Shown here: in pieces, positions 17,364-48,100 of the stretch
Position numbering within the stretch: the first letter of the stretch is position 1
Layout of the letters: every line of letters begins with the position of its first letter
Origin: Amoeboaphelidium protococcarum X5
Taxonomy: Eukaryota > Fungi > Aphelidiomycota
DNA length: 64,000 nucleotides
Assembly: GCA_023515725.1 (NCBI GenBank)
Contig: JALDTO010000098.1
Location: forward strand, 276,615-340,614
Direction of reading: 5' to 3'
Notes under the pieces: model-generated
Told to the model about the DNA's origin: nothing
Databases searched by the model: none
Seen by the model: the letters and a program-made list of their open reading frames with translations, nothing else
Program-made: the position numbers and the translations under genes

Positions 17364-20300
17364 TCAGTAGAGATTGATCAAATCCTGTAATAGTTTTTAA
17401 GCATTAACACGAGTAAAAACATTCTGATCCCAAGCCATGTCAACAATCTGACAATATTTGTCGAGCCTTGGATCTTGGATGGTTGGTTGAATTTATACTC
17501 TGCCACCTGCACAAACAGACTCTTATATCTGTTCTTTAGTGAACCCTTTCCAAGCCGGCTGTCTGTTCAGCAGTTCCGCCAGAATGACAGCACCTGCAAA
17601 GACATCGCGCTTGGGTTTCAAATCATCAGATACAAGTTGCTTCATCCAAACTTCCGGTGCAGCGTATGTAGGAGTGGAACCAGCCAGTGCATTCCAATTC
17701 AGCCCGGTAACCGTCTATGATTTGCCCAGCAGGGTACAAATACCAAAATCGGTCAGGCAGACGCGTACCTGTCCAGATGAAGTGTCCACTAGATAATTGG
17801 CAGCCTTGATATCGTTGTGGACGACACCTGTAGCGTGCATCACCACCATAGCAGAGAATACATCAATAGCCAGAGACTTTACGAGATCAAAATTCCATTC
17901 AACCTACTAACTTAACACGCTCTTCAAACCGATCAAATCATCCAATGATCCATTATGGTAATAGAACATCAGCATAACCAAATTCTCAGCATCAATACCA
18001 GCCAGTTTCGCAATGTGAGCACAATCTTTGAATCTCCACATTAAAGCGACTTCTTGCAAGAAAGCTTCGGAGTTCGCCTTGTTCGATGTATATTTCGCAA
18101 CCATGGTCTGGCCTTCGTATTGACGCAACGGATGGTCGGATGGGGTAGTCAGTATCTGTACAAGCCATATACTACCTTAACCACCAGCATTCAGTTAGGA
18201 GTTTGGAACTTTACGGAAATTCTGACCCTCACTTAGCCGTAAAAATCCGGGAACTGAGATTTCAAACGAGGTTGGGAGCATTGTCGTACCACCTTGCATT
18301 TACGTGCTAATGACTTGCATAGCAGTAGTGGTGGCGGCAGAGGATGCAACACTACTTTGTGTATACGTGCTGGCCCTTGTCATCTAAGTGCTAACCTTTT
18401 TAGTACGACGATACTTTTGGCGCGCATATAGTCCCACAATCAGAACAGCTATCACAAATACACCAGATACAATAGCTGCAACCGCAGATATCATTGACGA
18501 TTAGCCCTATAAAGCCTGAGGCCCAGATTGATCTCGAGCACCCTCATTTGAATTGGTGGAAACAGACTAACCTCCATTAAGATTGCCAATTCCAAAAGTT
18601 ATCAGCCCATTAATTGAAGTACTTACTACAAAAGACGAGCTAGATGGCAATGTAATTGACGTCTTTGTAGAAGAGCTTAGAAAACCAGCCGACTATGTTA
18701 CTGTATATGTAACGGCAGTCGATGTAGATAGGGAGTGAGAAGTATATGAGAATTATGTAGCAGAACCATTGGTAACGGAGCCATTAGTAACAGCAGTAAA
18801 TTACAAGGACGTAGAGAACGAGGTGGCAGTCGGTGTAGAAGTAGTGGTAGTAGTCGTAGTTGTGGTACTAGTTGTGGTAGTGGTCGGAGTGCTTGTAGTA
18901 GAGGTAGTTGTCGTAGTTGTGGGAGTACTAGTCGTTGTTGTGGTCGTCGTCGTAGTAGTCGTAGTTGTTGTACTTGTCGTCGTAGTCGTAGTTGTTGTAC
19001 TTGTCGTCGTAGTACTGGTGGTGGTAGTCGTCGTAGTTGTAGTAGTGGTAAGTACCATAGGAAGCAGATTACCAATCTTTGCCACACCTTGAACAAATGC
19101 CAAATTCTTCGTAACACCAGAGTCTTCAATAACATCTACAGAGCTTCCACTTGTCTGAAAGGAAATGATGAAACCACGATCTTCCAACGCAAAACCTTTC
19201 TGGAGATTAACATTTTACGAGGGAGTATAAATAACAGTTTGATTGAAGAAATTGCCAGTTGAATCAAAGACCATAATGACTGCGTACTGACCGGCGAAGG
19301 GGTGCACGTACTACTTTGTTATACTACCACTGTTGTTAAAGCTGATTGTAGCGGCTGAAGACACACCACTAAACAGCATATTATCGTTTACATCAAATTG
19401 AAGAGGTAGTTTTACAGCGGCAGAGCCAGACACAACTAACCACTTAGAAATAGACCTTGCACCCTGCAGTTTTAATAGATAAGATCCAAAGACCCCAGTT
19501 GATCCAAGAGTCATTACTGCAAAATTTGAAGCATTATACGCAATAAAGGGACCGTTAACGAAAATAGAAACATACGCAGCACCTGACTTATCAAAAGAGA
19601 CTCCACCAGAAGTTTCATCGCCTATGCCAGCAAATCGCCAATTATACTGAAACGCGCCAGTGGAATTAAATATCAACAGAGCACAATCAATTCCTTAAAC
19701 AAAGGGCGCTGAAACCACCCGACCTGTGGAGTCAATAAGATTAACATCATTTTATTGATTCATCTGCATGTACAAGTCGCCATTGGAGCTAATTTACATT
19801 CCAAAGTCCAAGGCAAATGTATAGTCGTTGAGGAAATAAATCAGATTAAGATTATTATCAAGCATAAAGACATGACCATAGCCACCACTGGAAGGACCAG
19901 CGACATTATCATTGTCATAGTATACAACTGGGTTATTTTACCAACCACCAAAACTGTTCCATACATGGATCACGACTTAACCATTAGGGCTAGTGAGGCT
20001 ATAATGAGGCACATTCCACGAGCCATCCGCACCAAAACGTGCAGTTCTCAATAGAGTACCATTACTAGCAAATTTGGCGACTACTGGCTGAGAGCCGCCA
20101 TTTAGAGGAATGGTCTTGGCTACTAGATTAGTTGTAGTGTAAAATTTAAAATCACTTGACTACTCCCATACAGTTGCTATAATGTTATCAAAGGGATCGA
20201 CGGTAAGCTAAGCCATAAAGTCGTCAGCAGCACCACTCATCATTAAATGCCACTGTAACGCGCCAAACTTATCATACTTTGCAATGTAACCATCAACACC

Positions 20301-20504
20301 ACTCTGATAAACCTGGGTTAACACAAAAGAGCCATTTGCAGAGTATATCTGCTCATTCAACTTTCCGACAGCCTAATAAGCGTAGAAATTTCCTTTAGAA
20401 TCTTGTTTAGTAACGTACAAAGAGCCTGTGGCACTGATAGTAAAATCGACGCCAGCAGTGATTACATCGGCCAGCAGCAACCAAGATGAAACTATAAACC
20501 ACAT
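17364..20504 (-). CDS. Receptor-like protein kinase 1 (signal peptide, beta-propeller-like ectodomain, poly-Thr stalk, TM, TKL-type kinase)
   Basis: 1047-codon table-6 frame; kinase motifs 'AGGQGSIWL', 'VAKY', 'HNDIKAANYL', 'TDFG', 'RDVFA'; TM 'MISAVAAIVSGVFVIAVLIVGLY'. Confidence 0.85.
18835..19050 (-). repeat. ACN-codon microsatellite encoding the poly-Thr/Ser stalk of RLK1
   Basis: gta/gtt/gtc/gtg runs on the + strand; about 65 Thr/Ser/Pro codons. Confidence 0.9.
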
Positions 20505-20973
20505 TTTCGTATGCGAGTAATTTATTCAAAGCTTAATAGGGAGATGTAAATGAGACAAAAGCGCAAAATGACTTATAATCCGTAATCTGAACCCAATATG
20601 CATTGGAATAACCTTGGGATTGGACGAGTACAGGAATCTCTGATAGGAATCGTTATTAAATCTATTTTCATGTCTTATACCAAAATGCGATAATGAAAGT
20701 AACATCAGATACTGTATATAACATATATATCAGCTGTTTTTCGACCGCCGCAGCTGCTGAGAGTATCGTTGCGAGTGGCTTGTTTCTAATGCTATCATCG
20801 TTTCACCTCAACAGCTTTTGGGGGAGATCATACAGTGAGAATGCAACTCTCACGGTCGCGGAGACCCCGATTTATCTGCACACAGCGTCTAAAATTAAGA
20901 AATTAATATTGATCACGACTATTTTCTATTCATTTCATCGTTTCCTTTTACTATCATCATTTTTTATTATATA

Positions 20974-21380
20974 AGAAGTAATATCTTTTATTTGGGACCA
21001 AAAGTAAAACAATTTAAATTTTAACTTCGGAGAATATCTAGAAGTAAAATAATACTCACTTTTACTGCGCCATAAATGTCGCCGTAGTAAATCAAATGAT
21101 TATTTTACTTGGAGATCTTAATGGATGCCTAAAAGTATAATTACTTTTGGTCCCAAATAAAAGATTAATTAGCAAGTCAAACTTGAAATGATAACATGCA
21201 TATCTTAAGACAGAACTTGATAGTAAGATTGTGTTTAAAAAGGACCTTAAACCATGACTATCAGGATCCCAAAAAAGTTTTCAATTTTGATCCCAAATAA
21301 TGCATCAAAATGTTAATGAAACCCAACCAGGATGTCTTTGAAAGGTGTCACAGATATCTCAAGGAATCTCTAAGAAATCT
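20974..21380 (+). repeat. Left terminal inverted repeat
   Basis: Outer ~195 bp match the reverse complement of 29011-29205 with ~13 mismatches by manual count; inner ~200 bp match 28797-29010 more loosely. Confidence 0.9.
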
Positions 21381-21541
21381 CAGAAGGTGAACACAACTCG
21401 ACATATCAACCGAATGACGATGGGATAAATGTGCTGTGGTGACTTGAAATCCAACGCTGCTCCGAAATCGCTCAATCAGAACATCGGTAGCCAGATCATC
21501 CAAAAAATCAGAACGCCAATCTCTTTTTTTCAATTTTTACG

Positions 21542-22804
21542 ATGGACCAAAATCAGCTCACACCAAGAGAATGCGCCGCTAAACTAGAAGCCATTGAGAA
21601 GAAGATCGACGACTTGAGGACCAAGAATGAGTACAACGGTGTCGAAATTACTGACAATGAAGAGAAGAAGGAGATAATCGCGGATTTGAAGCAGAAGGAG
21701 AAAGAATGGAGCGCTCGACTCGATCGTGCTCAGTTCGCCTCTACTCAGAAGCCCACCTGGCAATCACCATCATTTACGCTTTCCGCCGAGCCAGCATCTT
21801 ATTCAGTGACTATTATGAATCAAAAGCAGGGCGGCGCATTGTTATTGGCTATTCCGTGTCTATCGAAGGGCAGACGATGGGATCGCGTTCTGCTCTTTCT
21901 GAAGGCCGTGTGTGGCGATTTCGATATTCAGCATTATTCCTTGTCAAGTAACAATTCTGATATCGAGCTTTCAGATGATCTGCACCTTCCTCCTGCCGAA
22001 TTCACGCTCTCCCCGATTGATGATTCTCATTCCGTGCTGACCGTTATTTTCCAACCGCTTCCTATAGTTCCCCGTAGCACGTTGTCGCGACGAACATCAG
22101 GAGCCACTACACCGATTGAAGAACCGTCATCATCATCAAGACCTCAAAAGAAACCACGAGTTGAGTCTGAAGTTGACAAGCTGGTTGTTGAAAGTACGAA
22201 AGCCTTTGGCCGCGACGCGACATTTGAAAAACGAATCTTTCAGCGGGATCAACACTGCATTATCACTCGACAATACAGGTCACTGAAAGCCTCCCATATT
22301 GTTGCTCACGCTTGGTGGATGGACCATCCTGATCGTAAAGAACGACTGCCAGAAGATATCAAAAGGATTATCCGTTCTCTTGATGGGGGTATTGATCATA
22401 TTACCAATGGAATATTTTTGGATGGATCGATTTCAGATGCGTTCGACCGAGGAGACTTTTCGTTTCAGTTTGTGGATGGGCATTACTATGTCGTTTCAAT
22501 TACACCTGACTATGATTCAATCGATGGACTCCAGGTTGATGAATGTGTGCGTAATCGCTGGGATGGCACTGTTTGGTGGTGTCCGGAAAATCGTCCCAAT
22601 CCTTATCTGATGGCATTTCATTTGCGTAATAGTGTGTTTGCTCATTGTCGTGGTGCTGCTGGTTATGATGAATTTGACACCGAAGATGACAAAGAGAATG
22701 TTAAGATTGCGAGATCGGTTGTCAGTGAGTTCTTTGAGAATTCTGAAATCGGAAGTAAGATTGCATCATCGCTTACTTCGGAAGCATTAGCTCAATTTGA
22801 ATAA
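21542..22804 (+). CDS. HNH-endonuclease-domain protein with coiled-coil N-terminus (Crinkler/CR-effector-like); cargo
   Basis: 'FEKRIFQRDQHCIIT...ASHIVA...GGIDHITNGIFL...AFD...RPNPYLMAFHLR' HNH_2-type motifs; 420 aa open in the standard code; TAA stop overlaps AATAAA. Confidence 0.75.
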   Translation: MDQNQLTPRECAAKLEAIEKKIDDLRTKNEYNGVEITDNEEKKEIIADLKQKEKEWSARLDRAQFASTQKPTWQSPSFTLSAEPASYSVTIMNQKQGGALLLAIPCLSKGRRWDRVLLFLKAVCGDFDIQHYSLSSNNSDIELSDDLHLPPAEFTLSPIDDSHSVLTVIFQPLPIVPRSTLSRRTSGATTPIEEPSSSSRPQKKPRVESEVDKLVVESTKAFGRDATFEKRIFQRDQHCIITRQYRSLKASHIVAHAWWMDHPDRKERLPEDIKRIIRSLDGGIDHITNGIFLDGSISDAFDRGDFSFQFVDGHYYVVSITPDYDSIDGLQVDECVRNRWDGTVWWCPENRPNPYLMAFHLRNSVFAHCRGAAGYDEFDTEDDKENVKIARSVVSEFFENSEIGSKIASSLTSEALAQFE

Positions 22805-23028
22805 ACTCATAAACTCTCATGGAAACTCGTATTTTAAGTTATGTCTACTATACATCATCACAGTTTATGTCCCAAACGCCCGAATAAATCAGCGAGCTCT
22901 CGTTCCATATTAACATCATTCGCTATTGTCATCACGATGCTGCTCATTTTGCCGCAAAGATGGACATCGTCAATAAAACCCTGTTTGTTTACTAACTTAC
23001 TTTCTTTCCAACAAAATTTTAGACTAGA

Positions 23029-24999
23029 ATGACCAGCTCGACGCAATCGGTGTCGGGTGAGAGTAAAGCACCATTATATGACCTTCATTGCCATCTAATG
23101 GGTTGCGGTCGATGGGACGATTTTTGGCAGAAGGAGTTGAAGGAAGCGCTGCATAGAGCCCATACGGCAAATTTTGATAAACTGAGAGGCTTAACGGATG
23201 AACAACAGAAATTGTATGAAAGTACACTACTTACGGCAGTGAAGGCGGTGGAAGAATCCGACGATAGGGACAGAGATAGGGACAGAATATCCCCAGTCTT
23301 AAAATGTGACCCTAAGGCCATTTCCACACAAATTCAAAGCGAAGCTCTGCAAACTGCTGTCAAGGAGAGTCCGAATGACCAATTCTTATTCAGCTCACAA
23401 CTGTTGGTTGACAATCGGGTATACAGTCGATTTACTCAACAAGGATTAGGTTGTTACGAGAATTTGGGTGTCATCATTTTTGCGGCAGTGATGGGCTTCT
23501 CCTCGCTACCGGTAATCATCGAAAGTGTGAAAGCTTTAATCGACGGTTTCAGTCGAACCCCAGTTATTACATTGTCATTATGGACGATTATCGTGTTTGG
23601 TGGGATTATGAGTACCAAACTAGTGATGTATCTTTTGTGCCAACGCCTACTCAGCTGCAAGATCAAGCAAAATGTCATATTCTTCAACGAACGTCTCTGG
23701 AAATTTGACATTTATCGTGAAGCACTCCTGGTTCAAGATATTTTTGATTGTCTGGGGATGGAGGGGATGAAACAGTTTTTCGAATCAACTGACGATGCAT
23801 GTGTCTTTACGCCTGGATTTTACCCGAAATGTTTCTTTATGAAGGATGCCCTATATTTTAGAGACATAACGGTTCTGCAACGATTGATTGAAGAAGTGGT
23901 CGAGAAATACAAGAAGGCTGGAGTTGTATATGTCGAGTTCTCTGTTAGCGTCAAAGATTTGTATAAGTATCCGTGGGTGTTTCATCAGCTCTGTGTCAAA
24001 GCGAAGGCTGAAGAAAGAGCCGCGCAAACCCATGACAAAGACGGGGCGGTGAAAGAGAAATCAGAGTGTAAATACCGCTTTTTGGCTGCTGTTGCTCGCA
24101 TGGAGCGAAGATTTGCGTTGAATGATGAGGATGCTATTGCCATAAACAGTAACACAGAGTCGGTAGATGGTTGGTTGGACAGGCAATGTCCTAATGATCC
24201 AATGTCTCACTACTTTGACAGCATGAAAGGTGGTGATGAACTTTTGAAAATGGTTCGCGGTCTCGATTGGGTGTCAGATGAATACGGGTACCCATATTGC
24301 CCGTTTTACCGTGAAAAGTTTTTCGAGTATTCTCGTCGGCAAATTGAACGTAATGCAGAGAAAGGGTTTCCACCATGTTTCGGATTGCGTCCACATTTGG
24401 GTGAAGTGACTGAGAAAGGTTATGAGGAGTGGGTTGATAAGAATGGACGAAAAGTACCTGGTTCGATTTACTTTGACGTTCACAAGAAAATTATCACCAA
24501 GATTGCTGAACGAATGATGCAGGGTCAATTGGTTCCGTATGATCTTGAAGGTAAAAGTTACTATGTTGGTATGCGGTTTGGCCATGGCGTAGCACTACTT
24601 GTCGATTCGCACTTTCAGAAAGGGATGGTAGTGGAACTCAATTACACCAGCAATAAGAGATTGCTTCGATTTCTCGGTTGTCACGAGTTTGTAGAAGCGT
24701 CCAAAAATAGCCTTGTGAATGAATTGATTGCCAACATTGTTATAGGTACGGATAATGACGGCATATTTCCCTGCATAACAGGGGATGAACAGTTAATTAA
24801 AGCTGAACTTCTGAACCTAAAAAAGGACGGCTTCGTCGATACCATTCCCGACCGACCTGATCAACAAATTGTTGCTCAAGCATACCAATGTACTTTCAAT
24901 TACTATGATGGTTGGTCACCCAGATTCCTCTTGCAGGCAAAAACTCATACAGTTTTGCCTTTGGATACAAATGCTGATCAATTGGCGCCCTACCCTTAA
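23029..24999 (+). CDS. Adenosine/AMP deaminase-like amidohydrolase; cargo
   Basis: Metal/catalytic motifs 'DLHCHL', 'VVYVEFS', 'HLGE', 'RFGHG', 'VELNYTSN', 'GTDNDGIF'; 656 aa open in the standard code; stop TAA-TGA. Confidence 0.75.
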   Translation: MTSSTQSVSGESKAPLYDLHCHLMGCGRWDDFWQKELKEALHRAHTANFDKLRGLTDEQQKLYESTLLTAVKAVEESDDRDRDRDRISPVLKCDPKAISTQIQSEALQTAVKESPNDQFLFSSQLLVDNRVYSRFTQQGLGCYENLGVIIFAAVMGFSSLPVIIESVKALIDGFSRTPVITLSLWTIIVFGGIMSTKLVMYLLCQRLLSCKIKQNVIFFNERLWKFDIYREALLVQDIFDCLGMEGMKQFFESTDDACVFTPGFYPKCFFMKDALYFRDITVLQRLIEEVVEKYKKAGVVYVEFSVSVKDLYKYPWVFHQLCVKAKAEERAAQTHDKDGAVKEKSECKYRFLAAVARMERRFALNDEDAIAINSNTESVDGWLDRQCPNDPMSHYFDSMKGGDELLKMVRGLDWVSDEYGYPYCPFYREKFFEYSRRQIERNAEKGFPPCFGLRPHLGEVTEKGYEEWVDKNGRKVPGSIYFDVHKKIITKIAERMMQGQLVPYDLEGKSYYVGMRFGHGVALLVDSHFQKGMVVELNYTSNKRLLRFLGCHEFVEASKNSLVNELIANIVIGTDNDGIFPCITGDEQLIKAELLNLKKDGFVDTIPDRPDQQIVAQAYQCTFNYYDGWSPRFLLQAKTHTVLPLDTNADQLAPYP

Positions 25000-25050
25000 T
25001 GAATGCAGGTATGCCTTTACCACTGGGTTTTAATGATGCCAATAAATCCT

Positions 25051-26085
25051 TTACTTTCTTGATCTCTTACTTTGTCTTCTATCAGGCTCAATACCTTCAC
25101 GTTCACGAATGCGTTTATCAGCGCGGTAGATGTCAAGTTGCTTTTGCCTCAGTGAATTGTCAATGTCTTGACTTAGCGGTGACACCTTTAGCACTTCAAA
25201 CAAGTTGAATTTCTGGTGCCGACCTTCCACTTGAACACTATTTAATCCCACCTCCTCAACAATGTACACCTTTAACGTGAATCGCTGTCCCTCTTTCTCA
25301 AACGCGCCTCGTTTATTCAACAACCTGACAAAGTCCCCACGTTTGATGGCCGAATCAATAACTTTATTGTTGTGCGCAATACTTTTCCTAATCAGTTCCG
25401 CTTCATCAAATGTATCTAATCGCTCGGGTATCTTTGCGATGCTGCTATGAAATGATGAGTTGTAATTTTGAACAAAGTCTCCCAGATTATCAATCCATCT
25501 ATTGGTATTATTACGCGTCAGGAACTTTTCAATCATCAGTTTGATCGTGCGATTGAACCTCTCCGCAATCCCTAAACACTTCTTATCATCCTTCCCACAA
25601 TACTGGGCAGTGATATTATGCTGCGACATCCAAGATGTTATTCGTTTGTTTTGAAACTCTTTACCATTATCAGTCTGTAAAACTTTGATCGGTCTTCCAT
25701 CGTTGACTGATTGTTGTCGGATTAGATCAAAGGCTGCCAATACAGTTTCTTGAGTTTTATCTTTCAATGCTTCAACATATGCATATTTGGTGTTGACATT
25801 GATAACGTTGAGTAAGATATGATAGTTTGAATTCTGCTTTTGGTATCGTGTCAAGAAGGTCAGATCTGCCTGGTAATGCCCGACTTTACCGTGGATCTTT
25901 GGAACCGATTTAGAGTTCTTTGGTTTCTGAAACACTTGGCTTATTGGATTTTCAGCAAGGAACTCCTTAACCTGTTTCATTGTGATTTTTGGATTCTGCT
26001 CCTTGGCGCGTTTCAACAGCTTATCAGCTCCAACAAACCCTGTTTTGGGATCATTGAAAAGTGTACTTAGTAATTGTTGAGACAT
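25051..26085 (-). CDS. Retroviral-type (RVE) integrase, Polinton clade
   Basis: 'YQADLTFL' (D), 'LQTDNGKEF' (D), 'GIAERFNRTIK' (E), 'YNSSFHSSI', 'GDFVRL..RGAFEK'; likely start MSQQLL at 26085; ends TAA. Confidence 0.92.
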   Translation of the reverse strand: MSQQLLSTLFNDPKTGFVGADKLLKRAKEQNPKITMKQVKEFLAENPISQVFQKPKNSKSVPKIHGKVGHYQADLTFLTRYQKQNSNYHILLNVINVNTKYAYVEALKDKTQETVLAAFDLIRQQSVNDGRPIKVLQTDNGKEFQNKRITSWMSQHNITAQYCGKDDKKCLGIAERFNRTIKLMIEKFLTRNNTNRWIDNLGDFVQNYNSSFHSSIAKIPERLDTFDEAELIRKSIAHNNKVIDSAIKRGDFVRLLNKRGAFEKEGQRFTLKVYIVEEVGLNSVQVEGRHQKFNLFEVLKVSPLSQDIDNSLRQKQLDIYRADKRIREREGIEPDRRQSKRSRK

Positions 26086-26125
26086 GTATATATCAAAAAA
26101 GATAATCTTTATCAATAAATAATAA

Positions 26126-27922
26126 TTAATTACTGGATCGATGACCCATTGGAACTGAGTTGTTTCCAATGAAATGGCGTCCTTTCCATGGGGTGGAATT
26201 AATTTGTTTTGTTAATGCATCCAGCTTCAGAATACTGAAATTATCTACGTTTTGCTGTTTTGAGCTCTTGTTTAAATTGACGCGTTTGAAGTCTCTTTGC
26301 ATTTCAATATTGACCGGTTCCCCTCGCATCATCAATTCAAAGTTTTTCATGTTTAACTGATCGTTGGGTATGCCTTTGCCTCGTAAGTGATACTTGATCT
26401 CCTCAACATCGCCTTGTTTTTGAACGTACTCAAGAAAGTATAACTTTGGGGCAATCCATCCACCATACAGGATTTTACTCACTCCAGGCAGGTCATCACT
26501 TATGCCTCCGATCTCATTATCCAGAGTTAATCCCTTCAAGTTCTTGACGTGAATTTGAATACTATCTGTATCTGTGTAGTAAGGCGCGTTTTCAAGCTGA
26601 TTTTTTGTGTCAGCGCTATTGAAATATAGATTAGTCTTTTGTAAGTAATCGAGCATTATCCTGCGACTGTACCCCAGAATGAAACTTCCCAGATAGCAAG
26701 GCTTTGAAATCTTTGTTGCAAGTTTGGATTCATCCTGATAGGTAAGGTAGAAGCTTCCATCGCTTAAATATCGCATTGATACTCCACCGTATTTGATGTG
26801 AAACTTGATGAATTCTTCGTGAAGGTAAATGATCACGTTCTCGTCAAGAATGGGCCGTTGGATGGTTTTACCATATAGTCCATTCATCATCAACTTGGCT
26901 AGTTTGTACTGGGCACTGCCCTTTGTAGCATTTTTCTTGAATTCATACAGGTAGTTGATGTAGTTATTGAACACGTTCTCAGTCTGCTCCCAGTAATATC
27001 CCTCCAATATATCTATTTGATACCCATTCGTGAGAGCGTTATCAATATCAACACTGTTATATGTTCCACATCCATCAACCAAATCCCATAATAATCGCCC
27101 ATCACTTCTCCTTGGCAAAATAGCATCAATCAAGTTTCTATTTGTTACATATTCCACGCGGTAGATGCCAAATTTTGAACACTTATTATTCTGTTGGATT
27201 GACTGGTTAAAGTATTTGCATGATGGAGTGCCAGGTCTCAGATGTACTGGAATACCTACTGGGAATTCGTTTTTCATGGCAGCTGGATACAAGGAATTCA
27301 CATCTGCATTAACTAAGTAGTCATCAATATCTTCAAACTTGATCTGCTTACGGATATAGGGCTCACGTTGGCTACTCACAAACTTGTGTTTGTATTTGTA
27401 TGTTCTCCCTCCATAAATTGACTCTCTAAAGAACTGCTCTTGCTCTGGGGTGGGTAGAAAAACTGGATTGTTGCTTTCCTTATACAAGAAATCAACCCAT
27501 GCAGCGTAAGTCAGCTTTGATGTTGATAGAAACTTGTAAAGATTAACACCGAAATTCTCGAAACAACTTTTGTTTAATCGCTGGGACAGTTCTTTCAATC
27601 CCATTACATCGCCTTCCAAGTATTTCAAACAATCTGTTCGGTCATCATTGCACATGTTATCCCACTCATCTCCCAATATGTAATCAAAATCACCTTTCTG
27701 AACTGCACACTCTAACTCCTCGAGGTTCTTTCTCAACGTTCCTGTAATGTGTTTCGATATATCAAAACACGAGATATTTCCAATACTGGCTTTGAGAATG
27801 GCTCCGTTGTTTAACAGCAGCGTATCCAGCTTGATATCCACATTATCGCTATGCATCTGATTGAGTTTCTTGACAAATTCGTAGTGATCAAATTTGCTGC
27901 CGTTGAATGCATTGATGATGAC
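26126..27922 (-). CDS. Protein-primed family B DNA polymerase, 5'-truncated (no ExoI)
   Basis: ExoII 'AFNGSKFDH' upstream of the called ATG, ExoIII 'YLEGDV', motif A 'DVNSLYP', B 'KLMMNGLYGK', C 'YTDTDS', 'APKLY', 'RGKG'. Confidence 0.88.
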   Translation of the reverse strand, partial: VIINAFNGSKFDHYEFVKKLNQMHSDNVDIKLDTLLLNNGAILKASIGNISCFDISKHITGTLRKNLEELECAVQKGDFDYILGDEWDNMCNDDRTDCLKYLEGDVMGLKELSQRLNKSCFENFGVNLYKFLSTSKLTYAAWVDFLYKESNNPVFLPTPEQEQFFRESIYGGRTYKYKHKFVSSQREPYIRKQIKFEDIDDYLVNADVNSLYPAAMKNEFPVGIPVHLRPGTPSCKYFNQSIQQNNKCSKFGIYRVEYVTNRNLIDAILPRRSDGRLLWDLVDGCGTYNSVDIDNALTNGYQIDILEGYYWEQTENVFNNYINYLYEFKKNATKGSAQYKLAKLMMNGLYGKTIQRPILDENVIIYLHEEFIKFHIKYGGVSMRYLSDGSFYLTYQDESKLATKISKPCYLGSFILGYSRRIMLDYLQKTNLYFNSADTKNQLENAPYYTDTDSIQIHVKNLKGLTLDNEIGGISDDLPGVSKILYGGWIAPKLYFLEYVQKQGDVEEIKYHLRGKGIPNDQLNMKNFELMMRGEPVNIEMQRDFKRVNLNKSSKQQNVDNFSILKLDALTKQINSTPWKGRHFIGNNSVPMGHRSSN

Positions 27923-28287
27923 CTGAGAATAGGTCGAATAACTGAGCAGGTGATTAATGAATTGTTCTTTTCCTTGCTCGCGAAATAAGCTAAATCCCGA
28001 ATTGGCATTCTTTCATTCATGCCGATTAGATATCCATCATTCGATAATTTGATTTTCAGTCGATATTCAAACTTCCTTTTAAAGTCTGTGTAGTCCATTT
28101 GATAGTAATCATTCAGCAGATCAACTAATGAATATGTGTCATCCTCAGATATTACCATGATATTATTCAGTTTTTTTCTGAGGCATTGCTTCTTACTATC
28201 AAAGTACAAACTAAACTCATCAAAGATATAATCTATAGTAGGAAGCCTCTTTGGCTCTTCGAAATTAAGTTTGTTTGTACGAACCAT
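27811..28287 (-). CDS. Element ORF, probably the pPolB N-terminal remnant joined out of frame
   Basis: 158 aa standard-code ORF preceded by the same AT-rich motif as the integrase; its last ~35 codons read the PolB ExoII region in another frame. Confidence 0.5.
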   Translation of the reverse strand: MVRTNKLNFEEPKRLPTIDYIFDEFSLYFDSKKQCLRKKLNNIMVISEDDTYSLVDLLNDYYQMDYTDFKRKFEYRLKIKLSNDGYLIGMNERMPIRDLAYFASKEKNNSLITCSVIRPILRSSSMHSTAANLITTNLSRNSIRCIAIMWISSWIRCC

Positions 28288-28344
28288 CGATGTATATAAT
28301 AGGAAATATATTTATTACCAAAATAATTAATTAATACCTCTTAC

Positions 28345-28790
28345 GTTTGACCTTTCGAGCTTTGAGCTTTGACCTTTGATCTATCTTTGACCTTTGCACC
28401 TTTTGACCTTTCACCTTTGATCTATCTTTGACCTTTGCACCTTTGCACCTTTTGACCTTTTGACCTTCAATTATTTAATTATTTTCTACAAAATTTTCAT
28501 TCCCAATATATAGCACGAGGTTGCATCACACATAGCTTGATCGGAAGTTTCAACTTTGACCTTTTTCACCTTTAGCAAATGATCTAATGACCTTTCGACC
28601 TTTCAACTTGTGATCTTTAACCTTTTGACGCTTCACCTTTGCATCTTTAAACTTCTACGCCTTTGTTTTGCACAATCTCGCATTCTATTGAGCTTTATGA
28701 GAATATTCAACTTTGACCTTTGCGCCTTTGACAAATGATCTAATCCCTAATCCTTTGACCTTCGACCTTTGACATATCACCTTTTGAGAT
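28345..28790 (+). repeat. Degenerate (T)TGACCTTT tandem array in two clusters
   Basis: Many units of tttgacct/tttgcacct/tttcacct at 28345-28470 and 28555-28790, all on one strand. Confidence 0.8.
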
Positions 28791-28796
28791 TTATTT

Positions 28797-29205
28797 GCGA
28801 TTTCTTCAAGATTTCTCGCTGATATCTGTAACGCGTTTCAAAGACATCCTATGTTGGGTTTCATCCAAATATTGTTGCATTATTTGAAATCAACATTGAA
28901 TGCTCGGCTGCGATCTCTTTATACGTGGTTTAAGTTCATTTTAAGACGATCTTGTTATTATCAAACTCAAGACGTAGTTTAAGTACTACTTGAGGGTCTA
29001 ACCATTCAAATTAATATTTTATTTGGGACCAAAATTAATTACACTTTTAGGCATCTATCAAGATCTCCAAGTAAAATAATCATTCGATTTACTACGGCGA
29101 CATTTATGGCGCAGTACAAATGATTATTATTTTACTTTTAGATATTCTCCGAAGTAAAAATTTAGCTTGTTTTACTTTTGGTCCCAAATAAAAGATATTA
29201 CTTCT
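28797..29205 (-). repeat. Right terminal inverted repeat
   Basis: Reverse complement of the left TIR. Confidence 0.9.
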
Positions 29206-29247
29206 TATATATCACTGTTCTAAAGTAATCAAAGAGCCAATTGCTCA

Positions 29248-32200
29248 TCATAGATTGACCAAATCATTCAATACGCGTTGAGCATGTACACGCGTAAATA
29301 TATTTTGATCCCAGGCCATATCAATTATTTGACAATATTTGTCGAGCCTTGGATCTTGGATGGTTGGTTGAATTTATACTCTGCCACCTGCACAAACATA
29401 CTCTTATATCTGTTCTTTAGTGAACCCCTTCCAAGCCGGCTGTCTGTTCAGCAGTTCCGCCAGAATGACAGCACCTGCAAAGACATCGCGCTTGGGTTTC
29501 AAATCATCAGATACAAGTTGCTTCATCCAAACTTCCGGTGCAGCGTATGTAGGAGTGGAACCAGCCAGTGCATTCCAATTCAGCCCGGTAACCGTCTATG
29601 ATGTGCCCAGCAGGGTACAAATACCAAAATCGGTCAGGCAGACGCGTACCTGTCCAGATGAAGTGTCCACTAGATAATTGGCAGCCTTGATATCGTTGTG
29701 GACGACACCTGCCGCGTGTAGCACTACCATAGCAGAAAATACGTCAATAGAGAGAGACCTAATCAGTTCAAAGCTCCAAACAATTTGCTAACTTAACACG
29801 CTCTTCATATTTACAAAATCATCCAATGATCCATTTTGGTAATAGAACATCAGCATAACCAAATTCTCAGCATCAAAACCTGCCAATTTTGCAATGTGAG
29901 CACAATCTTTGAATCTCCACATCAATGCAACCTCTTGTAAGAAAGCCTCTGCACTAACCTTATTAGTAGAATACTTTGCAACCATAGTCTAACCATCACA
30001 TTAACGGAAAGGATGATCAGACGGAACAGTAAGTATCTAGACAAGCCAAATACTACCTTGACCGCCTGCATTTAGCAGAGAATTAGGAATTTTACGAAAA
30101 TTCTGCCCCTCACTAAGCTTTAAGAATCCGGGCACCGAAATTTCAAATTAGGTAGAGACCATAGTAGTGCCACCCTACATTTATGTGCTTCGAATCTCCA
30201 TGACAGTGGAGGAAGCTGCAGAGGGAGCGACACTATTCTGAGTTAACGTGCTGGCTTTAGTGCTAATCTTCTTGGTACGACTAAACTTTTGACGCGCATA
30301 TAAAGCAACAGCTAATACTGCGACTACAAAGATGCCAGAAACAATAGCTGCAACTGCAGATATCATTGACGACTAATTTTGTTGAGCCTAAGGCCCAGAT
30401 TGATCTCGAGCACCCTCATTTGAATTCGTGGATACAGATTAGCCTCCAATAGAACCACCAATACCAAACGTTATTAGCCCATTAATTTAAGAGCTAACTG
30501 CAAAAGATGAGCTCGATGACAATTTAACTGGCGTCTTTATAGAATAACTCAGAATACCAGCTAAAGATGATACTGTATATGTAACGGCAGTCGATGTAGA
30601 TAGGGAGTGAGAAGTATATGAGAATTATGTAGCAGAATCATTGGTAACGGAGCCATTAGTAACAGCAGTAAATTACAAGGACGTAGAGAACGAGGTGGCA
30701 GTCGGTGTAGAAGTAGTGGTAGTAGTCGTTGTTGTGGTTGTGGTCGTGGGCGTCGGAGTACTAGTTGTGGTTATTGTACTCGTCGTGGTGCTAGTGGTAG
30801 TGGTTGTCGTAGTAGTTGTTGTAGTAGTCGTCGTAGTCGTAGTAGTGGTCGTGGTTGTTGTAGTAGCAGTGGTGTACAGCACGGTAGGTACAGGTAGGAA
30901 ATCCAACAATCTCGCAACACCTCTCTGGATAGGAATGGCAACTTGGCCACCTCTTGTATCATTAAACAAAACGCCCTGTCCATCAGTGATAAAGCCAGCA
31001 AGCATTTTGTTCTACGGAAGCCACTAAAAATAGCCAAATCTTGTATTTTGTGTTGCATTGTACAATAAACTGCGACCCCAAATCTTGCCCAGATTATGAT
31101 AAGCAAACACAATACCATACTGAAACGGGAACTAACGATTGTATTGCGTAGAAATTACACCAGTAGTGTTAATACTCAAAACAGCAGCATCAGAATATAA
31201 AGCATAAAACAAATTATCCTCATTGTCCATGAGCATGTTGCCTGTAGTGGATCCAGCACCACTTACGCTGGACCACCATGTAACAGATGTCCCGCCATTC
31301 AGCTTGAAAAAATAAGCCCCAGATACACCGGTTGCACCCATTTATAACACGGGAGTATTAACAACATTAAAAACAGTGAACGGACCACTGGAGGATACCT
31401 GTTAAATCGGAGCACCAGCATTATCAAAAGTTAGCTAAATAGGCGCCTAATCGCCTGGGCCACTAAATCTCCAAAAATATAAGAAAGCTCCAGTGGGATC
31501 AAATACTATCAAGTTGACATCGATGCCAGAATCATAAAGAGTATAAACTTCAAAGCCTTTGGTATCCGTGAGAGCCGTACCTGACTATGCATACTGCTGA
31601 TAATAAAGCACACCTGTGGGTCCTATAGTTAAACGCGAAAATACAGCGAAGCTACCATCATCCACATTATAGATGTGATTGAGGTTATTGTCCATCATGA
31701 AGATGTGCCCGCCACCATTACTGGTTGCGACAATGGTACCATTATTGTCGTACATATTCACTGGATTGGTTGGCCATCCGCCGTAAGAGTTCCACATCTG
31801 TACCGCAAACCATCCGTTTGGCCCAAGCACAGACCAATTTGGAACATTATATGAACCAGGGGCATACAGTTGAGCTGTGCGGAGCAAAGTACCGTTGGGA
31901 TGAAACTTGGCAACGACGCCTTAAGTGCCACTCGGGATGTTGATAGACTTCACAGGCTAATGATTAGTGCTATAATACTTAAAGTCTTGCGATGTTGTCC
32001 AAGTAGAAAAGAACAGATTATCCTGCGCGTCAACAAAAGGACCTTAACCCCAATCATCACCGCTACCAGCAATGTGGAAGTACCATAATAGATTACCTTA
32101 GGTGTTAAATTTCATGTAGATACTGTCTGAACCACCTCCAGCGTAGAAAGTTGTTGTTGTCACAGACCCATTCGCAGAATAGATCTACTCACCAACTTTA

Positions 32201-32340
32201 TATACATATGCACGTGCGTAAAAGTTACCTGCGGAGTCAATAGTGGAGAGTTCATAATCACTCGAGCTTCGAATAGTAAATTCATTAGAAGCAACAGCCA
32301 AGTTGATTAGCAATGCAGTCAAAGCCAGGCGAATATTCAT
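29248..32340 (-). CDS. Receptor-like protein kinase 2 (paralog)
   Basis: 1031-codon table-6 frame from MNIRLALTALL to ...DLVNL-TGA; same architecture; kinase C-lobe nearly identical to RLK1. Confidence 0.85.
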
Positions 32341-32517
32341 TGATGGCAAATTATTCGTAAATAATGACGATAAAGCACGAAGTCTGTACTGTATGCTGAT
32401 GTAATAGTAACACAAGTTGTCTGATTGGTGCATTAATAGCAGGATTGATTGGCCATTCTTAGGCCGAAAAAGCAACACATGAAGCTAACACGGTAAATAG
32501 ATTATTTTACTTCAAAT

Positions 32518-35500
32518 TCATTTCAAACCATAAAGAGAATTCAGAACTTACATTGCGTGCGGCCTTAACGTGACATCCTACTCCCAAGCAGTGTAAATGA
32601 TCGCAAGTAACGCGTCATTCTTCGGGTCTTCAAAGCATGGAGTCAAAGCAGGACGTTCGCCGGCCAAGACAGCTTGACTTATTAGATCTCTGCTTTGTCC
32701 TGCCCATGCCACTTTTCTGTTGACCATCTCAGCCATTATGACAGCACCAGCATAGACGTCACGTTTCATTCTCTGTTAATCAAGCAATACTTGCTTAAGC
32801 CATACTTCAGGTGCCGCGTACATCGCAGTAAAGCCATTAAGCGCATTCCATGTCATACCAGTAACTGCTTTGGATGAACCCAAGAGGGAGCATATACCGA
32901 AATCGGTAAGACAAACGCGAATTTAACCAGATGACACATCGACGAGATAATTGCCAGCCTTAATATCATTGTGCACGACACCTGCTTGATGAGTAACCTG
33001 AATAGCGGCAAAGACGTCCACAGACAATGAATACACCAAGTCGAAATTATAAGTTACTAGACGGCTAATTTCGCTCTTACTTTCGATGAACATTTCAAGT
33101 GAACCTTGCTAGTAATGAGCCATTAAAAGGATCATATTCAGTGGGTCAAATCCGACTATTTTTGCTATGTGTGCGCTATCCTTAAATCGCCACATAAGAG
33201 CCACCTCTTACAAGAAAGCTTCAGACTAGCCCACGCCATTACTATACTTGGCAACAAATTTCTCGCCGGGCTGTGGTCTTAAAGGATATTAATAAGGTAG
33301 ATCCAGTATTTAAGCCAGCCATATAGAACCTTGGCCACCAGCGGTGAGTTGAGAATTAGGAATCTAACGAAAGTTGAGCCCTTCTGTCAGTCTCATGAAC
33401 CCAGGAACTGAGATCTCATAGGATGTCGGAACCAGTGTCGTTCCGCCTTGCATATTCGTAGCCCCTTGATGTATAGTGGTAGTTAATGCAAAAGATGCAA
33501 GGCTACTTTAAGTATACGTACTTGCCCTGGTGACTTGTGAGGTGATCTTAACACGGCGACGATGTAATTTGTGACGAGCATATAAAGCAGCTAGTACAAC
33601 TACCAGAACAAAGACAGCAGCTATTATTGCCACGATAGTCGATAACATCGAAGATGAGCCTTATAGAGCTGATGAATTAGACTAATTTTGAGTAGAATCA
33701 TCCACACCAGTTGTCGATTGAACCTTACTGTACGCAAAGTCTCCCAATCCAAAAGTGACAACGCCAACAGATAAGGAAGTCTTAATAGTTGTAAATGAGG
33801 ACGACTACAGCAATGGTTATGTCGTCTGTTCGACTAGCGACGTATTTGTCTTTGTGCTTGTACCAAAAGCTACCGTTGATGATGCATTCGCAATACTAGT
33901 AAATAGACCTGCGGCGACATTCCAGGTACTTGAAGATGCAGCGGATGCGAAAGGCGCAGTATTATTATTAGCAGTAATTGAAGTCGTGGTAGTAGGAGTA
34001 ATAGTGGAAGTTGTTGTCGTCGTCAATGTTGTCGTAGTCGTTGTGGAGGTGGTAGTAGATGTTGTAGTTGTTGTTGTTGTTGTGCTTGTAGTCGTCGTTG
34101 TACTTGTAGTAGTAGTTGTTGTTGTCGTGGTGGTTGTGGTAGTTGTCGTCGTCGTACTAGTCGTAGTACTGGTGGTGGTAGTCGTCGTGGTCGTTGTAGT
34201 GGTAGGTACCATAGGAAGCAGATTACCAATTTTTGCAATGCCTTGAGCGAAGGCGTAATTCTACGTAGTACCAGAATCTTCAATAATGTTCACAGAACTT
34301 CCACTTGTTTGGAAAGCTACTAGAAAGTCGCGATTTGCCAATACAAAACTTCCAAAGAGAGTAATACTTTACGCAGAAGTGTAGATTACAGTTCGGTTGA
34401 GGAAAGAACCAGCTTCATTAAAAACCATAATGATTGCGTACTGACCGGTAAATGGATGCACATACTAATTAGTGACAACACCATTGTTGTTAAAGCTAAT
34501 CGTAGCGGCTGCGGACACACCGCTAAAGACCATATTGTCATTTGTATCCAAAGCGAGAGATAATCTTACAGCGGCAGAGCCGGTTATAGACGACCATTTC
34601 AATATAGATCTGCCACCATTAAGCTTGAAGACATAAGATCCGGATACTCCAGCTGCTCCAAGCGTCATAACTGCAATGTTAGAAGCATTGTAAGCAACAA
34701 AAGGACCATTGACGAACACCGAAGCATAAACAGCACCAGACTTGTCAAAAGAAACTCCACCAGGTATTTCATCACCTGTACCAGCAAATCGCCAATAGTA
34801 CTAGAATGCACCGCTGGAGTTGAATACCAACATAGGGCAGTCCACTCCGCTAACTAAAGGTGCAGAAATCAAGCGACCTGTGGAATCAGTCAAGCTCACA
34901 GCAGTTTACTGATTCATTTGCAAAAATTAATCCCCATTAGCGTTAATTGTCATTGTGACATCCACGGCGAAAGTGTTATCGTTGTGGAAGTACACAAGAT
35001 TTAGATTATTGTCAAGCATGAACCTATGACCAGTGCCGCTACTGGACGGGCCAGCAACATTATCATTATTATAATAGACGACTGGATTGTTTTACCAACC
35101 ACCGAAGCTGTTCCATATATGAACCAATACCTGTCCATTAGGACCCACGACTGAACTCTGAGGCACATTCCACGAGCCAGCCGCGTCCAAACGCGCAGTC
35201 CTTAACAGAGTGCCATTACTAGAAAATTTGGCAACAACTGCCTATGAGCCACCACTTAAAGGAATAGTTTTGGCCACTTGGTTAGTTGTTGTGTAAATTT
35301 TGAAATCACTAGACTACTCCCATATTACTGCAATAATGTTATCAGAGGGATCAATGTTAAGAGAATACATATAATCGTCATTAACACCTGTCATCATGAG
35401 ATGCCACTACAACGCGCCAAACATATTATACTTTGCAATGAACGATTCAGCACTTCTCTGATAAACCTGAGTTTACACGAATGAGCCATTAGCAGAGTAT

Positions 35501-35658
35501 ATACGCTCATTCGCGACTCTGACATGTGAATACGTGTAGAAGAAGCCTTTCGAGTCTTGTTTAGTTGCCCATGTACCCGTGGCAGCCCTGACTGTAAAGT
35601 CGACGCCAGCAGTGATTAAGTTGGCAAGCTGCAGGGAAGCTACCACGATAGCCCACAT
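32518..35658 (-). CDS. Receptor-like protein kinase 3 (paralog)
   Basis: 1047-codon table-6 frame from MWAIVVASLQL to ...LYGLK-TGA; 'HNDIKAGNYL', 'TDFG', 'RDVYA'; poly-Thr at ~33980-34203. Confidence 0.85.
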
Positions 35659-36444
35659 TCTTAGAAATAGTTACATATCGAATCAAACTATTTAAAAATT
35701 ATAATCTTATAATTATCAACTTAACCAATTATATGATGTAAAAAGGAGCACCGTAACGAAATTTTGGGACTATATGCAGCGAAGTGGCTTGGGATTGGCC
35801 AGAATAAGCATCTCTGATTGGAGCCTTAATTATAACTAATGGGTATGGCCTCTTTCATTAACTATTAATCTTTGGCCAAATTCACTGCATAACGCTGTAT
35901 TAGACTTTATATATAATGGCTATTGTTTCAGTAATACGCTATTTTTGCTTTAAAAAATACGATGAAGAATATAGTAACAAAGAAGTGATGGGAGCATGAC
36001 ACTTTAACAGAATCGCGCCAAAGATGATTAGAAAGTAGAATTTTATTGCAATATAGATATATTTCGCAGCTATTATTGATTTGTTCAGTTAGAACCTCTA
36101 TGGCTGCATCTGCGTAAACTCCATACACAATCGATAGTTTGATACAGTACCACAAAGCAACCGCGCGAAATTGAATTCAAAAACTGAGAAAAGGTCCAGT
36201 AAATTCTATATAAGTTATACTAGCAGCAATTAGAACAAGGGAGTCAGTGTACAGTAGAGTTAAATACTTTGTTGTTTCATGTCTTGATCATAGCGGCGGA
36301 AATCATTCCAATCAACGGGCGACGGTCAACTGTCTACTCATTCATTCATTCTCGCTATTTCGCCCCATCGCAACAGACTGAAAGTGAGAGCCGGTGAAAC
36401 CATCAGGATTCCTCTCTCCCTCTCTCGTTGCTCCCAGTACAACA

Positions 36445-47959: not shown

Positions 47960-48100
47960 ATTGAATTAATAGATTGGTAAATTTCATCTTATCATCAAGT
48001 TTCTTAACTGATTTAACTCGCTTACAGTCTATTTCATCGGTTTGTCCGACAAACATTACTGTATATATCAGGCGCGCCTTTCGGCGCGGCAATTCCATTA
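47960..48100 (-). ncRNA. Candidate Fanzor omegaRNA (scaffold + 3' guide)
   Basis: CGCGCC-GAAA-GGCGCG hairpin over the last codons; nested TACAGT/ACTGTA and GTTTGTC/GACAAAC stems just downstream; position as expected for TnpB/Fanzor. Confidence 0.5.

What the first reader, a model, noticed from the sequence alone, without database searches (positions are those of the whole stretch)
20974..29205. Standard-code Polinton-like element integrated in a TAR=Gln genome
Seen: four long ORFs (420, 656, 344, ~600 aa) have no in-frame TAA/TAG although Gln is common (about 17 in the HNH and 24 in the integrase by my count, all CAR), and all end in TAA. Flanking host genes are peppered with TAR. AG...CT termini, 6-bp flanks, TIRs, pPolB and RVE are established Polinton hallmarks. 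Inference: a recent horizontal arrival from a standard-code organism, or an element that shuttles between codes (for example parasite and algal host). The code works as a one-way valve: standard-code genes are still readable here, with C-terminal extensions.
Basis: partly seen in the sequence, partly recalled or inferred. Interest (0 to 1): 0.88.

Follow-up and report, generated by a model that had tools for sequence, protein, structure and literature searches.

The report
Standard-code mini-Polinton invading a recoded parasite
An 8.2-kb jumping DNA element written in the ordinary genetic code sits in the genome of an algal parasite that reads two stop codons as glutamine; it likely arrived recently from another microbial parasite, bringing a predicted DNA-cutting effector gene, so the code mismatch marks a gene transfer between species.

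Summary
Real. 20974-29205 is an integrated, capsid-less Polinton-type element in Amoeboaphelidium protococcarum (TAA/TAG=Gln). It has 197-bp palindromic TIRs, AG..CT ends and a TATATA duplication; the empty site exists in the same sample and two others. Its genes use 0 TAR/97 CAR against 395/405 in host genes, and end in TAA where homologues end. Relatives form a pPolB+integrase family in standard-code metagenomes, A. occidentale and the sanchytrid Amoeboradix (78-93% identity); no algal relative was named. A. protococcarum copies are not one clade (AU p=6e-7). With no stop-like codon in 2139 codons, under ~1% neutral decay is implied. Best reading: recent horizontal arrival, one of repeated invasions, likely a dead end; zero TAR needs no selection. 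Shuttling between codes is not excluded but has no positive support. Mavericks carrying cargo between species are known; this minimal family and the code contrast were not found in the papers searched.

The parts
20968..20973 (.). Left target-site duplication TATATA
   Evidence: empty site holds one copy (joint 20967->29206, 6 letters fit both sides)
20974..21170 (+). Left TIR (197 bp, starts AGAAG), itself an imperfect ~185-bp palindrome; weaker similarity to the right end continues to ~410 bp
21542..22804 (+). Cargo 1: 420-aa HNH nuclease with a swappable N-terminus, likely Crinkler/CR-effector type; 17 CAR, 0 TAR, stop TAA
   Evidence: Pfam HNH_2 E 1.9e-7; 87% to an unnamed ENA protein, 40-42% to Entophlyctis/Obelidium/Chytriomyces proteins
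23029..24999 (+). Cargo 2: 656-aa adenosine-deaminase-like protein (predicted); 30 CAR, 0 TAR; TAA followed directly by TGA
   Evidence: collinear motifs against E. coli Add, pairwise hhalign E 4e-4, probability 36%; one homologue, 26%; no Pfam/NCBIfam/PDB hit above cut-off
25051..26085 (-). Intact 344-aa RVE integrase; 24 CAR, 0 TAR, stop TAA (45-aa tail if read through)
   Evidence: Pfam rve E 3.7e-11; homologues 343-349 aa; no excess change at conserved sites
26086..26135 (-). Bipartite AT motif (TAATT/AATTAT ... TATATA) before the integrase start; promoter role is inferred
26126..27965 (-). pPolB 3' piece (612 codons in frame; first ATG at 27856 gives 576 aa), stop TAA
   Evidence: Pfam DNA_pol_B_2 E 1e-50; 87% to P0001
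27966..28287 (-). pPolB 5' piece (107 codons); deletion of about 340 codons plus frameshift at ~27966
   Evidence: tblastn of full-length homologues
28288..28800 (.). Same AT motif before the pol start, then degenerate 8-bp tandem repeats (TTTGACCT-like)
29009..29205 (-). Right TIR, palindromic, ends CTTCT
29206..29211 (.). Right target-site duplication TATATA

Best explanation
This is a copy, with a broken polymerase, of a small capsid-less Polinton-type transposon (pPolB + RVE integrase between palindromic TIRs) that likely jumped recently from a standard-code zoosporic parasite into the TAR=Gln aphelid A. protococcarum, carrying a predicted HNH effector and a predicted deaminase as cargo. 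Shown: integration with a 6-bp duplication, presence on one allele only, standard-code codon use, pol deletion, close relatives in other species. Inferred: the family replicates by protein-primed synthesis from its palindromic ends and integrates by its integrase, in standard-code hosts. This copy lost its polymerase, probably before arrival, since the TIRs have diverged more (6.6%) than the ORFs have decayed. It was likely taken up when the phagotrophic aphelid shared an algal cell or pond with a donor, and inserted by integrase: read-through protein, donor-made protein, or another copy in trans. It has no TAR because under ~1% of sites have changed since, not because TAR is selected against. 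In this host its TAA stops would be read as Gln, giving tails of 76, 1 and 45 aa, and such copies likely decay. Other, independent invasions left the broken integrase copies seen in the same species.
For: Empty site 20967->29206 in 4 of 4 runs laid (3 samples); in the source sample it lies on the other allele; element interior is one 7338-bp contig with 0 differences at single-allele depth. 0/97 vs 395/405 TAR. Simulation: P(no TAA/TAG/TGA in 2139 codons) is 0.03-0.06 at 1% neutral change and <=0.003 at 2%. Integrase 91% to an ENA protein, 85% to Amoeboradix gromovi; pol 87% to a JGI protein, 78% to a protein of the same Amoeboradix contig, 72% to A. occidentale. Another A. protococcarum copy is 93% identical over 207 aa to an intact A. 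occidentale integrase, although the two species are described as phylogenetically distant (PMC10608142, passages). The three A. protococcarum copies are rejected as a clade, p-AU 6.3e-7. Eleven metagenome loci show 320 CAR against 3 TAR and 1 TGA in aligned pol/int. 10 of 12 loci have pol then int in tandem; in 2 the palindromic end and ...ATATTATCTTCT terminus follow int within 44-73 bp. MP228_002557 runs RLRK-Q into a tail at the homologous stop. A resident multicopy element in the window uses 24 TAR/25 CAR.
Against: No donor genome with a near-identical copy was found (best 87-91% aa). Contigs bridging the two filled junctions were not among the pieces listed, and only contigs, no raw reads, were available. 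TAR use in the other host copies was read at one Gln codon only (CAA in 11 of 11 other contigs, several being the same insertions in different samples). CAR->TAR alone cannot tell recency from selection (P(0)=0.07-0.19 even at 3.3% change). The Amoeboradix record could be contamination (its contig name gives coverage 0.27). No complete two-ended relative was recovered, so capsid genes in other members are not excluded. Some A. occidentale copies are also truncated, so broken copies do not prove a code-caused dead end.
Confidence: 0.75

Rival explanations
1. Active shuttle: the family transposes in A. protococcarum using read-through proteins and returns to standard-code hosts often enough that TAR codons are purged.
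For: At least 6 other integrase copies in the same sample, and TIR-bearing sequence at another locus in run X8. Gln306 stays CAA in 11 of 11 other contigs while neighbouring synonymous sites vary. Integration left a clean duplication. ORF2 ends TAA-TGA; the integrase is intact.
Against: Three of four stops have no nearby TGA; the pol is broken; the copy is single. 3 of 3 annotated host copies seen are truncated or rearranged. Host copies fall in separate lineages. Recency alone explains 0/97.
Confidence: 0.13
2. Defective remnant of an integrating virus (virophage-Polinton hybrid) delivered in a particle; full members would carry capsid genes.
For: A related pPolB (30%) lies in a linear virophage with a Sputnik-type capsid and 320-bp TIRs (L013). 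A shared AT motif precedes pol and int starts but not host or cargo starts.
Against: No capsid, ATPase or protease ORF in the element or beside int in L008/L009. No close relative in IMG/VR by pol, int or terminus pattern. The virophage pol lies on a separate branch.
Confidence: 0.08
3. Assembly chimera with DNA of a standard-code contaminant or of the algal host.
For: Filled junction contigs were not listed; the best runs may be the window's own source.
Against: Exact empty site with one TATATA in three samples; depth equal to one allele; the window's own flank allele shows no empty-site joint; related copies lie on long A. protococcarum contigs.
Confidence: 0.04

Closest known systems
Polintons/Mavericks, including capsid-less members (PMC4028283, passages: nine elements lacked MCP, protease and ATPase)
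   Same: pPolB, RVE integrase, TIRs, 6-bp duplication, AG..CT ends (the last two hallmarks recalled)
   Different: 8.2 kb with a ~5.5-kb inferred core; no morphogenetic module; each TIR is a long palindrome; pol broken; host is an aphelid with another genetic code
Cargo-carrying nematode Mavericks (bioRxiv 10.1101/2022.07.12.499685, abstract and section list)
   Same: Horizontal spread of cargo genes between distant species on a Maverick-type vector
   Different: Those have viral genes and a fusogen; here no particle genes, the cargo is chytrid-type HNH and deaminase-like, and transfer crosses a code change
Polinton-type EVEs of Streblomastix strix (PMC10120064, passages)
   Same: Integrated element in a TAA/TAG=Gln host; code used to infer length of association
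   Different: Those use the host's table (long association); this one uses the standard code (recent)
Totivirus of CUG=Ser yeast (PMC3628385, abstract)
   Same: Selfish element lacking the host's reassigned codon
   Different: There avoidance is read as adaptation of a replicating virus; here recency suffices and stops are not adapted
Rumen hybrid virophages, RVP (PMC4409740, passages)
   Same: Linear, TIRs, pPolB; the related L013 pol is 30% identical
   Different: RVP have capsid, ATPase and protease and no integrase
Crinkler/CR-HNH effectors (PMC5289972, passages)
   Same: C-terminal HNH with interchangeable N-terminal region; nearest named relatives in chytrids
   Different: No LXLFLAK/ubiquitin-like header detected; delivery to a host cell untested

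Membership tests
Polinton/Maverick | Protein-primed family B polymerase | tested here: met
   PF03175 E 1e-50; gene broken in this copy, open in relatives
Polinton/Maverick | Retroviral-like integrase | tested here: met
   PF00665 E 3.7e-11; full length against homologues
Polinton/Maverick | TIRs, AG..CT ends, 6-bp target duplication (hallmarks recalled) | tested here: met
   empty site
Polinton/Maverick (polintovirus form) | Major/minor capsid, packaging ATPase, protease; 15-20 kb | tested here: not met
   All five long ORFs assigned otherwise, no room left; 8232 bp
Polinton/Maverick | Self-synthesis / autonomous replication | not testable with these tools
   Predicted lost in this copy (deletion)
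Virophage or RVP hybrid | Virophage capsid, ATPase, protease | tested here: not met
   Capsid found in L013, none in the element
Transpoviron/Tlr1 | SF1 helicase fused to inactivated pPolB (PMC5499653, start of abstract, plus recall) | tested here: not met
   No helicase hit; full-length relatives are pol only
Crinkler/CR effector (cargo 1) | Nuclease-type C-terminal toxin domain (HNH) | tested here: met
Crinkler/CR effector (cargo 1) | N-terminal header domain (ubiquitin-like or helical) | tested here: inconclusive
   No Pfam hit; residues ~12-100 recur on an unrelated ATPase P0450, and relatives have different N-termini
Crinkler/CR effector (cargo 1) | Translocation into the host cell | not testable with these tools
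   needs experiment
Adenosine deaminase family (cargo 2) | Metal/catalytic motifs of the amidohydrolase barrel | tested here: inconclusive
   Five motifs collinear with E. coli Add, pairwise E 4e-4, probability 36%; library scans blank; folds failed

The most novel reading that the evidence does not exclude
A minimal two-gene Polinton family acts as an effector-gene shuttle among algal parasites of different phyla. It stays mobile inside the TAR=Gln aphelid through read-through integrase and cycles back to standard-code hosts, so selection keeps it readable in both codes.
Probability: 0.13. Interest if true: 0.85.

Novelty: new variant of a known kind. Interest (0 to 1): 0.6.

Why it matters
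The codon mismatch gives a built-in clock and direction marker for horizontal transposon transfer in a eukaryote. The same family occurs in a recoded aphelid and in standard-code relatives, so it allows a direct test of an old idea: that altered codes act as firewalls against mobile elements. One can compare intact versus decayed copies, copy number, TAR gain with age, and activity of read-through proteins. It also points to a compact, capsid-less Polinton family with a variable cargo slot that could move effector-type genes among parasites of algae.

Tried and rejected
No whole genome was held, so copies could not be counted directly. No RNA holder was listed among 10 runs; this says nothing on expression. 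The narrow lay reported variants only for 25162-25210, so one Gln codon was tested instead of the five intended. IMG/VR gave no close relative by pol, int or terminus pattern, and one distant virophage; prokaryote genomes gave none. Both AlphaFold models of ORF2 failed (pLDDT 36 and 32), so no fold search was run; PDB, Pfam and NCBIfam scans gave no significant hit for it; the protein atlas gave no answer. Flip-flop inversion of the terminal palindromes was tested and not seen. An algal donor was rejected for want of any named algal relative in the listed hits (120 of 183, 120 of 164; 10 HNH/ORF2 clusters looked up). Selection against TAR was set aside as unnecessary. Earlier scan notes: three look-ups, nothing returned. 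The A. protococcarum genome paper, the 2024 polinton review and the original CR-effector paper were not held; they or their supplements may mention these elements. No supplements were read.

Full report
Observation. The element spans 20974-29205 (8232 bp), begins AGAAG and ends CTTCT, with TATATA on both sides. The TIRs are 197 bp with 13 mismatches, the first 39 bp identical. Each TIR is an imperfect palindrome that folds as one long hairpin (-37 and -34 kcal/mol, DNA parameters, no shuffle control). ORFs under the standard code: HNH 420 aa (+), ORF2 656 aa (+), integrase 344 aa (-), and pPolB in two pieces (-). All end in TAA. They hold 97 CAR and 0 TAR codons. Twenty-three host ORFs, chosen by me from the 46 code-6 ORFs of 200 aa or more, hold 395 TAR and 405 CAR (Fisher p=4e-27; lowest host gene 3 of 20). 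Three host proteins read in code 6 cluster with named Amoeboaphelidium protococcarum proteins (96-99% identity), an algal parasite known to read UAR as Gln (PMC5304391, passages).

Is it integrated? Contigs of 4 of the 10 listed runs were laid. In X1 and X2 (one sample, possibly the window's source) 21064-28401 is one contig with no differences at depth 78-79, like single flank alleles. So the copy is single. A joint 20967->29206, skipping the element plus one TATATA, is present in X1, X2, X6 and X8 (three samples). In X1/X2 it has the depth of the allele whose flank letters differ from the window, so this sample has one filled and one empty allele. X6 and X8 show no cover over HNH, ORF2 or most of pol. 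X8 has sequence starting exactly at 20974 behind a different flank, which supports the terminus and another insertion of a relative. Contigs bridging the filled junctions were not among the pieces shown (303 not listed), and no raw reads were available.

The polymerase is broken. Full-length homologues are 940-1058 aa. The window copy matches residues 1-115 in one frame and resumes near residue 455 in another, at about 27966. The lost part includes the first exonuclease motif and, by recalled pPolB anatomy, most of the terminal-protein region. This copy is therefore likely non-autonomous. The integrase is full length, and neither it nor the pol remainder shows more change at conserved columns than intact homologues (5 of 182; 11 of 272).

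The family. The pol search gave 183 proteins (120 listed): 87% JGI, 78% EukProt, 72% A. occidentale. The integrase search gave 164 (120 listed), best full-length hits 343-349 aa, with A. protococcarum and A. occidentale entries. The EukProt contig carrying both genes is labelled Amoeboradix gromovi, a sanchytrid (PMC8371127, start of abstract); contamination of that record is possible. Twelve metagenome loci were fetched. Ten have pol followed directly by int; the other two end inside pol. In L008 and L009 a ~190-bp palindrome and the terminus ...ATATTATCTTCT follow int within 44-73 bp. In L003/L006/L007 and L004 other ORFs converge on int instead. The slot after int is thus variable cargo, and a ~5.5-kb core TIR-pol-int-TIR is inferred from separate copies; no two-ended relative was recovered. 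Aligned pol and int in 11 loci contain 320 CAR, 3 TAR (one opposite Gln) and 1 TGA, so these are standard-code copies, some decayed. A two-part AT motif, defined after seeing the data, precedes 7 of 10 family starts, 0 of 15 host starts and 0 of 2 cargo starts. The only viral relative was a linear virophage with Sputnik-type capsid and a 30% identical pol on a separate branch.

Cargo. The HNH protein has 108 relatives: one unnamed at 87% over full length, then chytrid proteins (Entophlyctis, Obelidium, Chytriomyces) at about 40% with different N-termini. This matches the header-plus-nuclease layout of Crinkler/CR effectors (PMC5289972, passages), but no header family was detected. ORF2 has one homologue. 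Its motifs align in order with E. coli adenosine deaminase (pairwise E 4e-4, probability 36%); the fold could not be predicted.

Why no TAR? In code 6, CAR->TAR is silent, so a resident gene drifts to about half TAR. A multicopy RuvC-like element at 48068-50239 has done so (24/25). Simulated neutral change would give about 3 stop-like codons at 1% and 6 at 2%; none is seen in 2139 codons (P 0.03-0.06 and <=0.003). TIR divergence (3.3% per arm) exceeds this, so it likely predates arrival. CAR->TAR alone expects only 2-3 events at 3.3%, so the codon test cannot show selection. In a 21-row integrase tree the window copy pairs with an environmental protein (99/96). Two other A. protococcarum copies sit among A. 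occidentale copies, one being 93% identical over 207 aa to an intact A. occidentale integrase. Holding the three together is rejected (p-AU 6.3e-7; the two other copies were cut to their in-frame parts). The two species are described as distant and the genus as polyphyletic (PMC10608142, passages); that A. occidentale uses the standard code is recalled, and fits its integrase ending at the homologous stop. The other integrase copies in the runs (6 in X2, 3 in X6, 2 in X8, 80-93% alike over the stretch) differ mostly at synonymous sites and keep CAA at the one Gln codon that could be read. An annotated host copy runs RLRK-Q into a tail at the ancestral stop. All three annotated host copies seen are truncated or rearranged, but so are some A. 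occidentale copies.

Mechanism. Shown: integration with a 6-bp duplication, allele- and sample-specific presence, standard-code usage, broken pol, cross-species relatives. Inferred: replication by pPolB and integration by the integrase in standard-code zoosporic hosts; uptake by the phagotrophic aphelid from a co-occurring parasite; read-through tails of 76, 1 and 45 aa on the intact genes in the new host; later decay. Confidence 0.75, against 0.13 for an active two-code shuttle, 0.08 for a defective virus remnant and 0.04 for a chimera.

Comparison with the literature. Capsid-less Polintons are known (PMC4028283, passages). Mavericks carry cargo across nematode species (10.1101/2022.07.12.499685, abstract). 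Polinton-type EVEs in the TAR=Gln oxymonad Streblomastix use the host code, and that survey was capsid-based and excluded fungi (PMC10120064, passages). A yeast totivirus avoids a reassigned codon (PMC3628385, abstract). No held paper contains both 'Amoeboaphelidium' and 'Polinton'. None of the 25 listed of 49 papers combines an aphelid or Amoeboradix term with Maverick or pPolB; searches showed no description of this family in their listings. The genome paper itself was not held, so novelty is bounded by that gap. Verdict: a new variant of a known kind; interest 0.6. The striking codon contrast has an ordinary cause, recent transfer, but it makes the code-as-firewall question testable within one element family.

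Noticed in passing
window 48068-50239 (-): 723-aa code-6 ORF with RuvC-like motifs (Fanzor/TnpB-like by recall; no Pfam hit), 24 TAR/25 CAR; its cluster holds 10 A. protococcarum copies, mostly 771 aa. Likely a resident, code-adapted mobile element.
   Followed up: partly
window 17364-20504, 29248-32433, 32518-35676 (-): Three tandem intronless paralogues with long Thr-rich stalks, a hydrophobic segment and a kinase-like C-terminus; the element lies between two of them, 43 bp past one stop codon.
   Followed up: no
L013:1-13327: Near-complete linear virophage with pPolB, Sputnik-type capsid, collagen-repeat protein, 320-bp TIRs, an internal ~190-bp palindrome and repeated intergenic motifs.
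   Followed up: partly
window 26110-28434, run X8: Weak joint (20 letters on the short side) skipping the whole pol gene: possible integrase-only derivative in another sample.
   Followed up: no
L004:2600-3320 (-); L003:3945-4406 (-): Other cargo ORFs converge on the integrase in relatives: one with a possible 2OG-Fe(II)-type motif (recalled, untested), one without Pfam hit.
   Followed up: partly
L012:5011-5358: A pol fragment of this family abuts a copia-like retroelement region (by recalled motifs), suggesting nested insertion in a eukaryotic host.
   Followed up: no
window 21542-21840 vs P0450: The HNH N-terminal helical stretch recurs in front of an unrelated P-loop ATPase: possible mobile header module.
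   Followed up: partly
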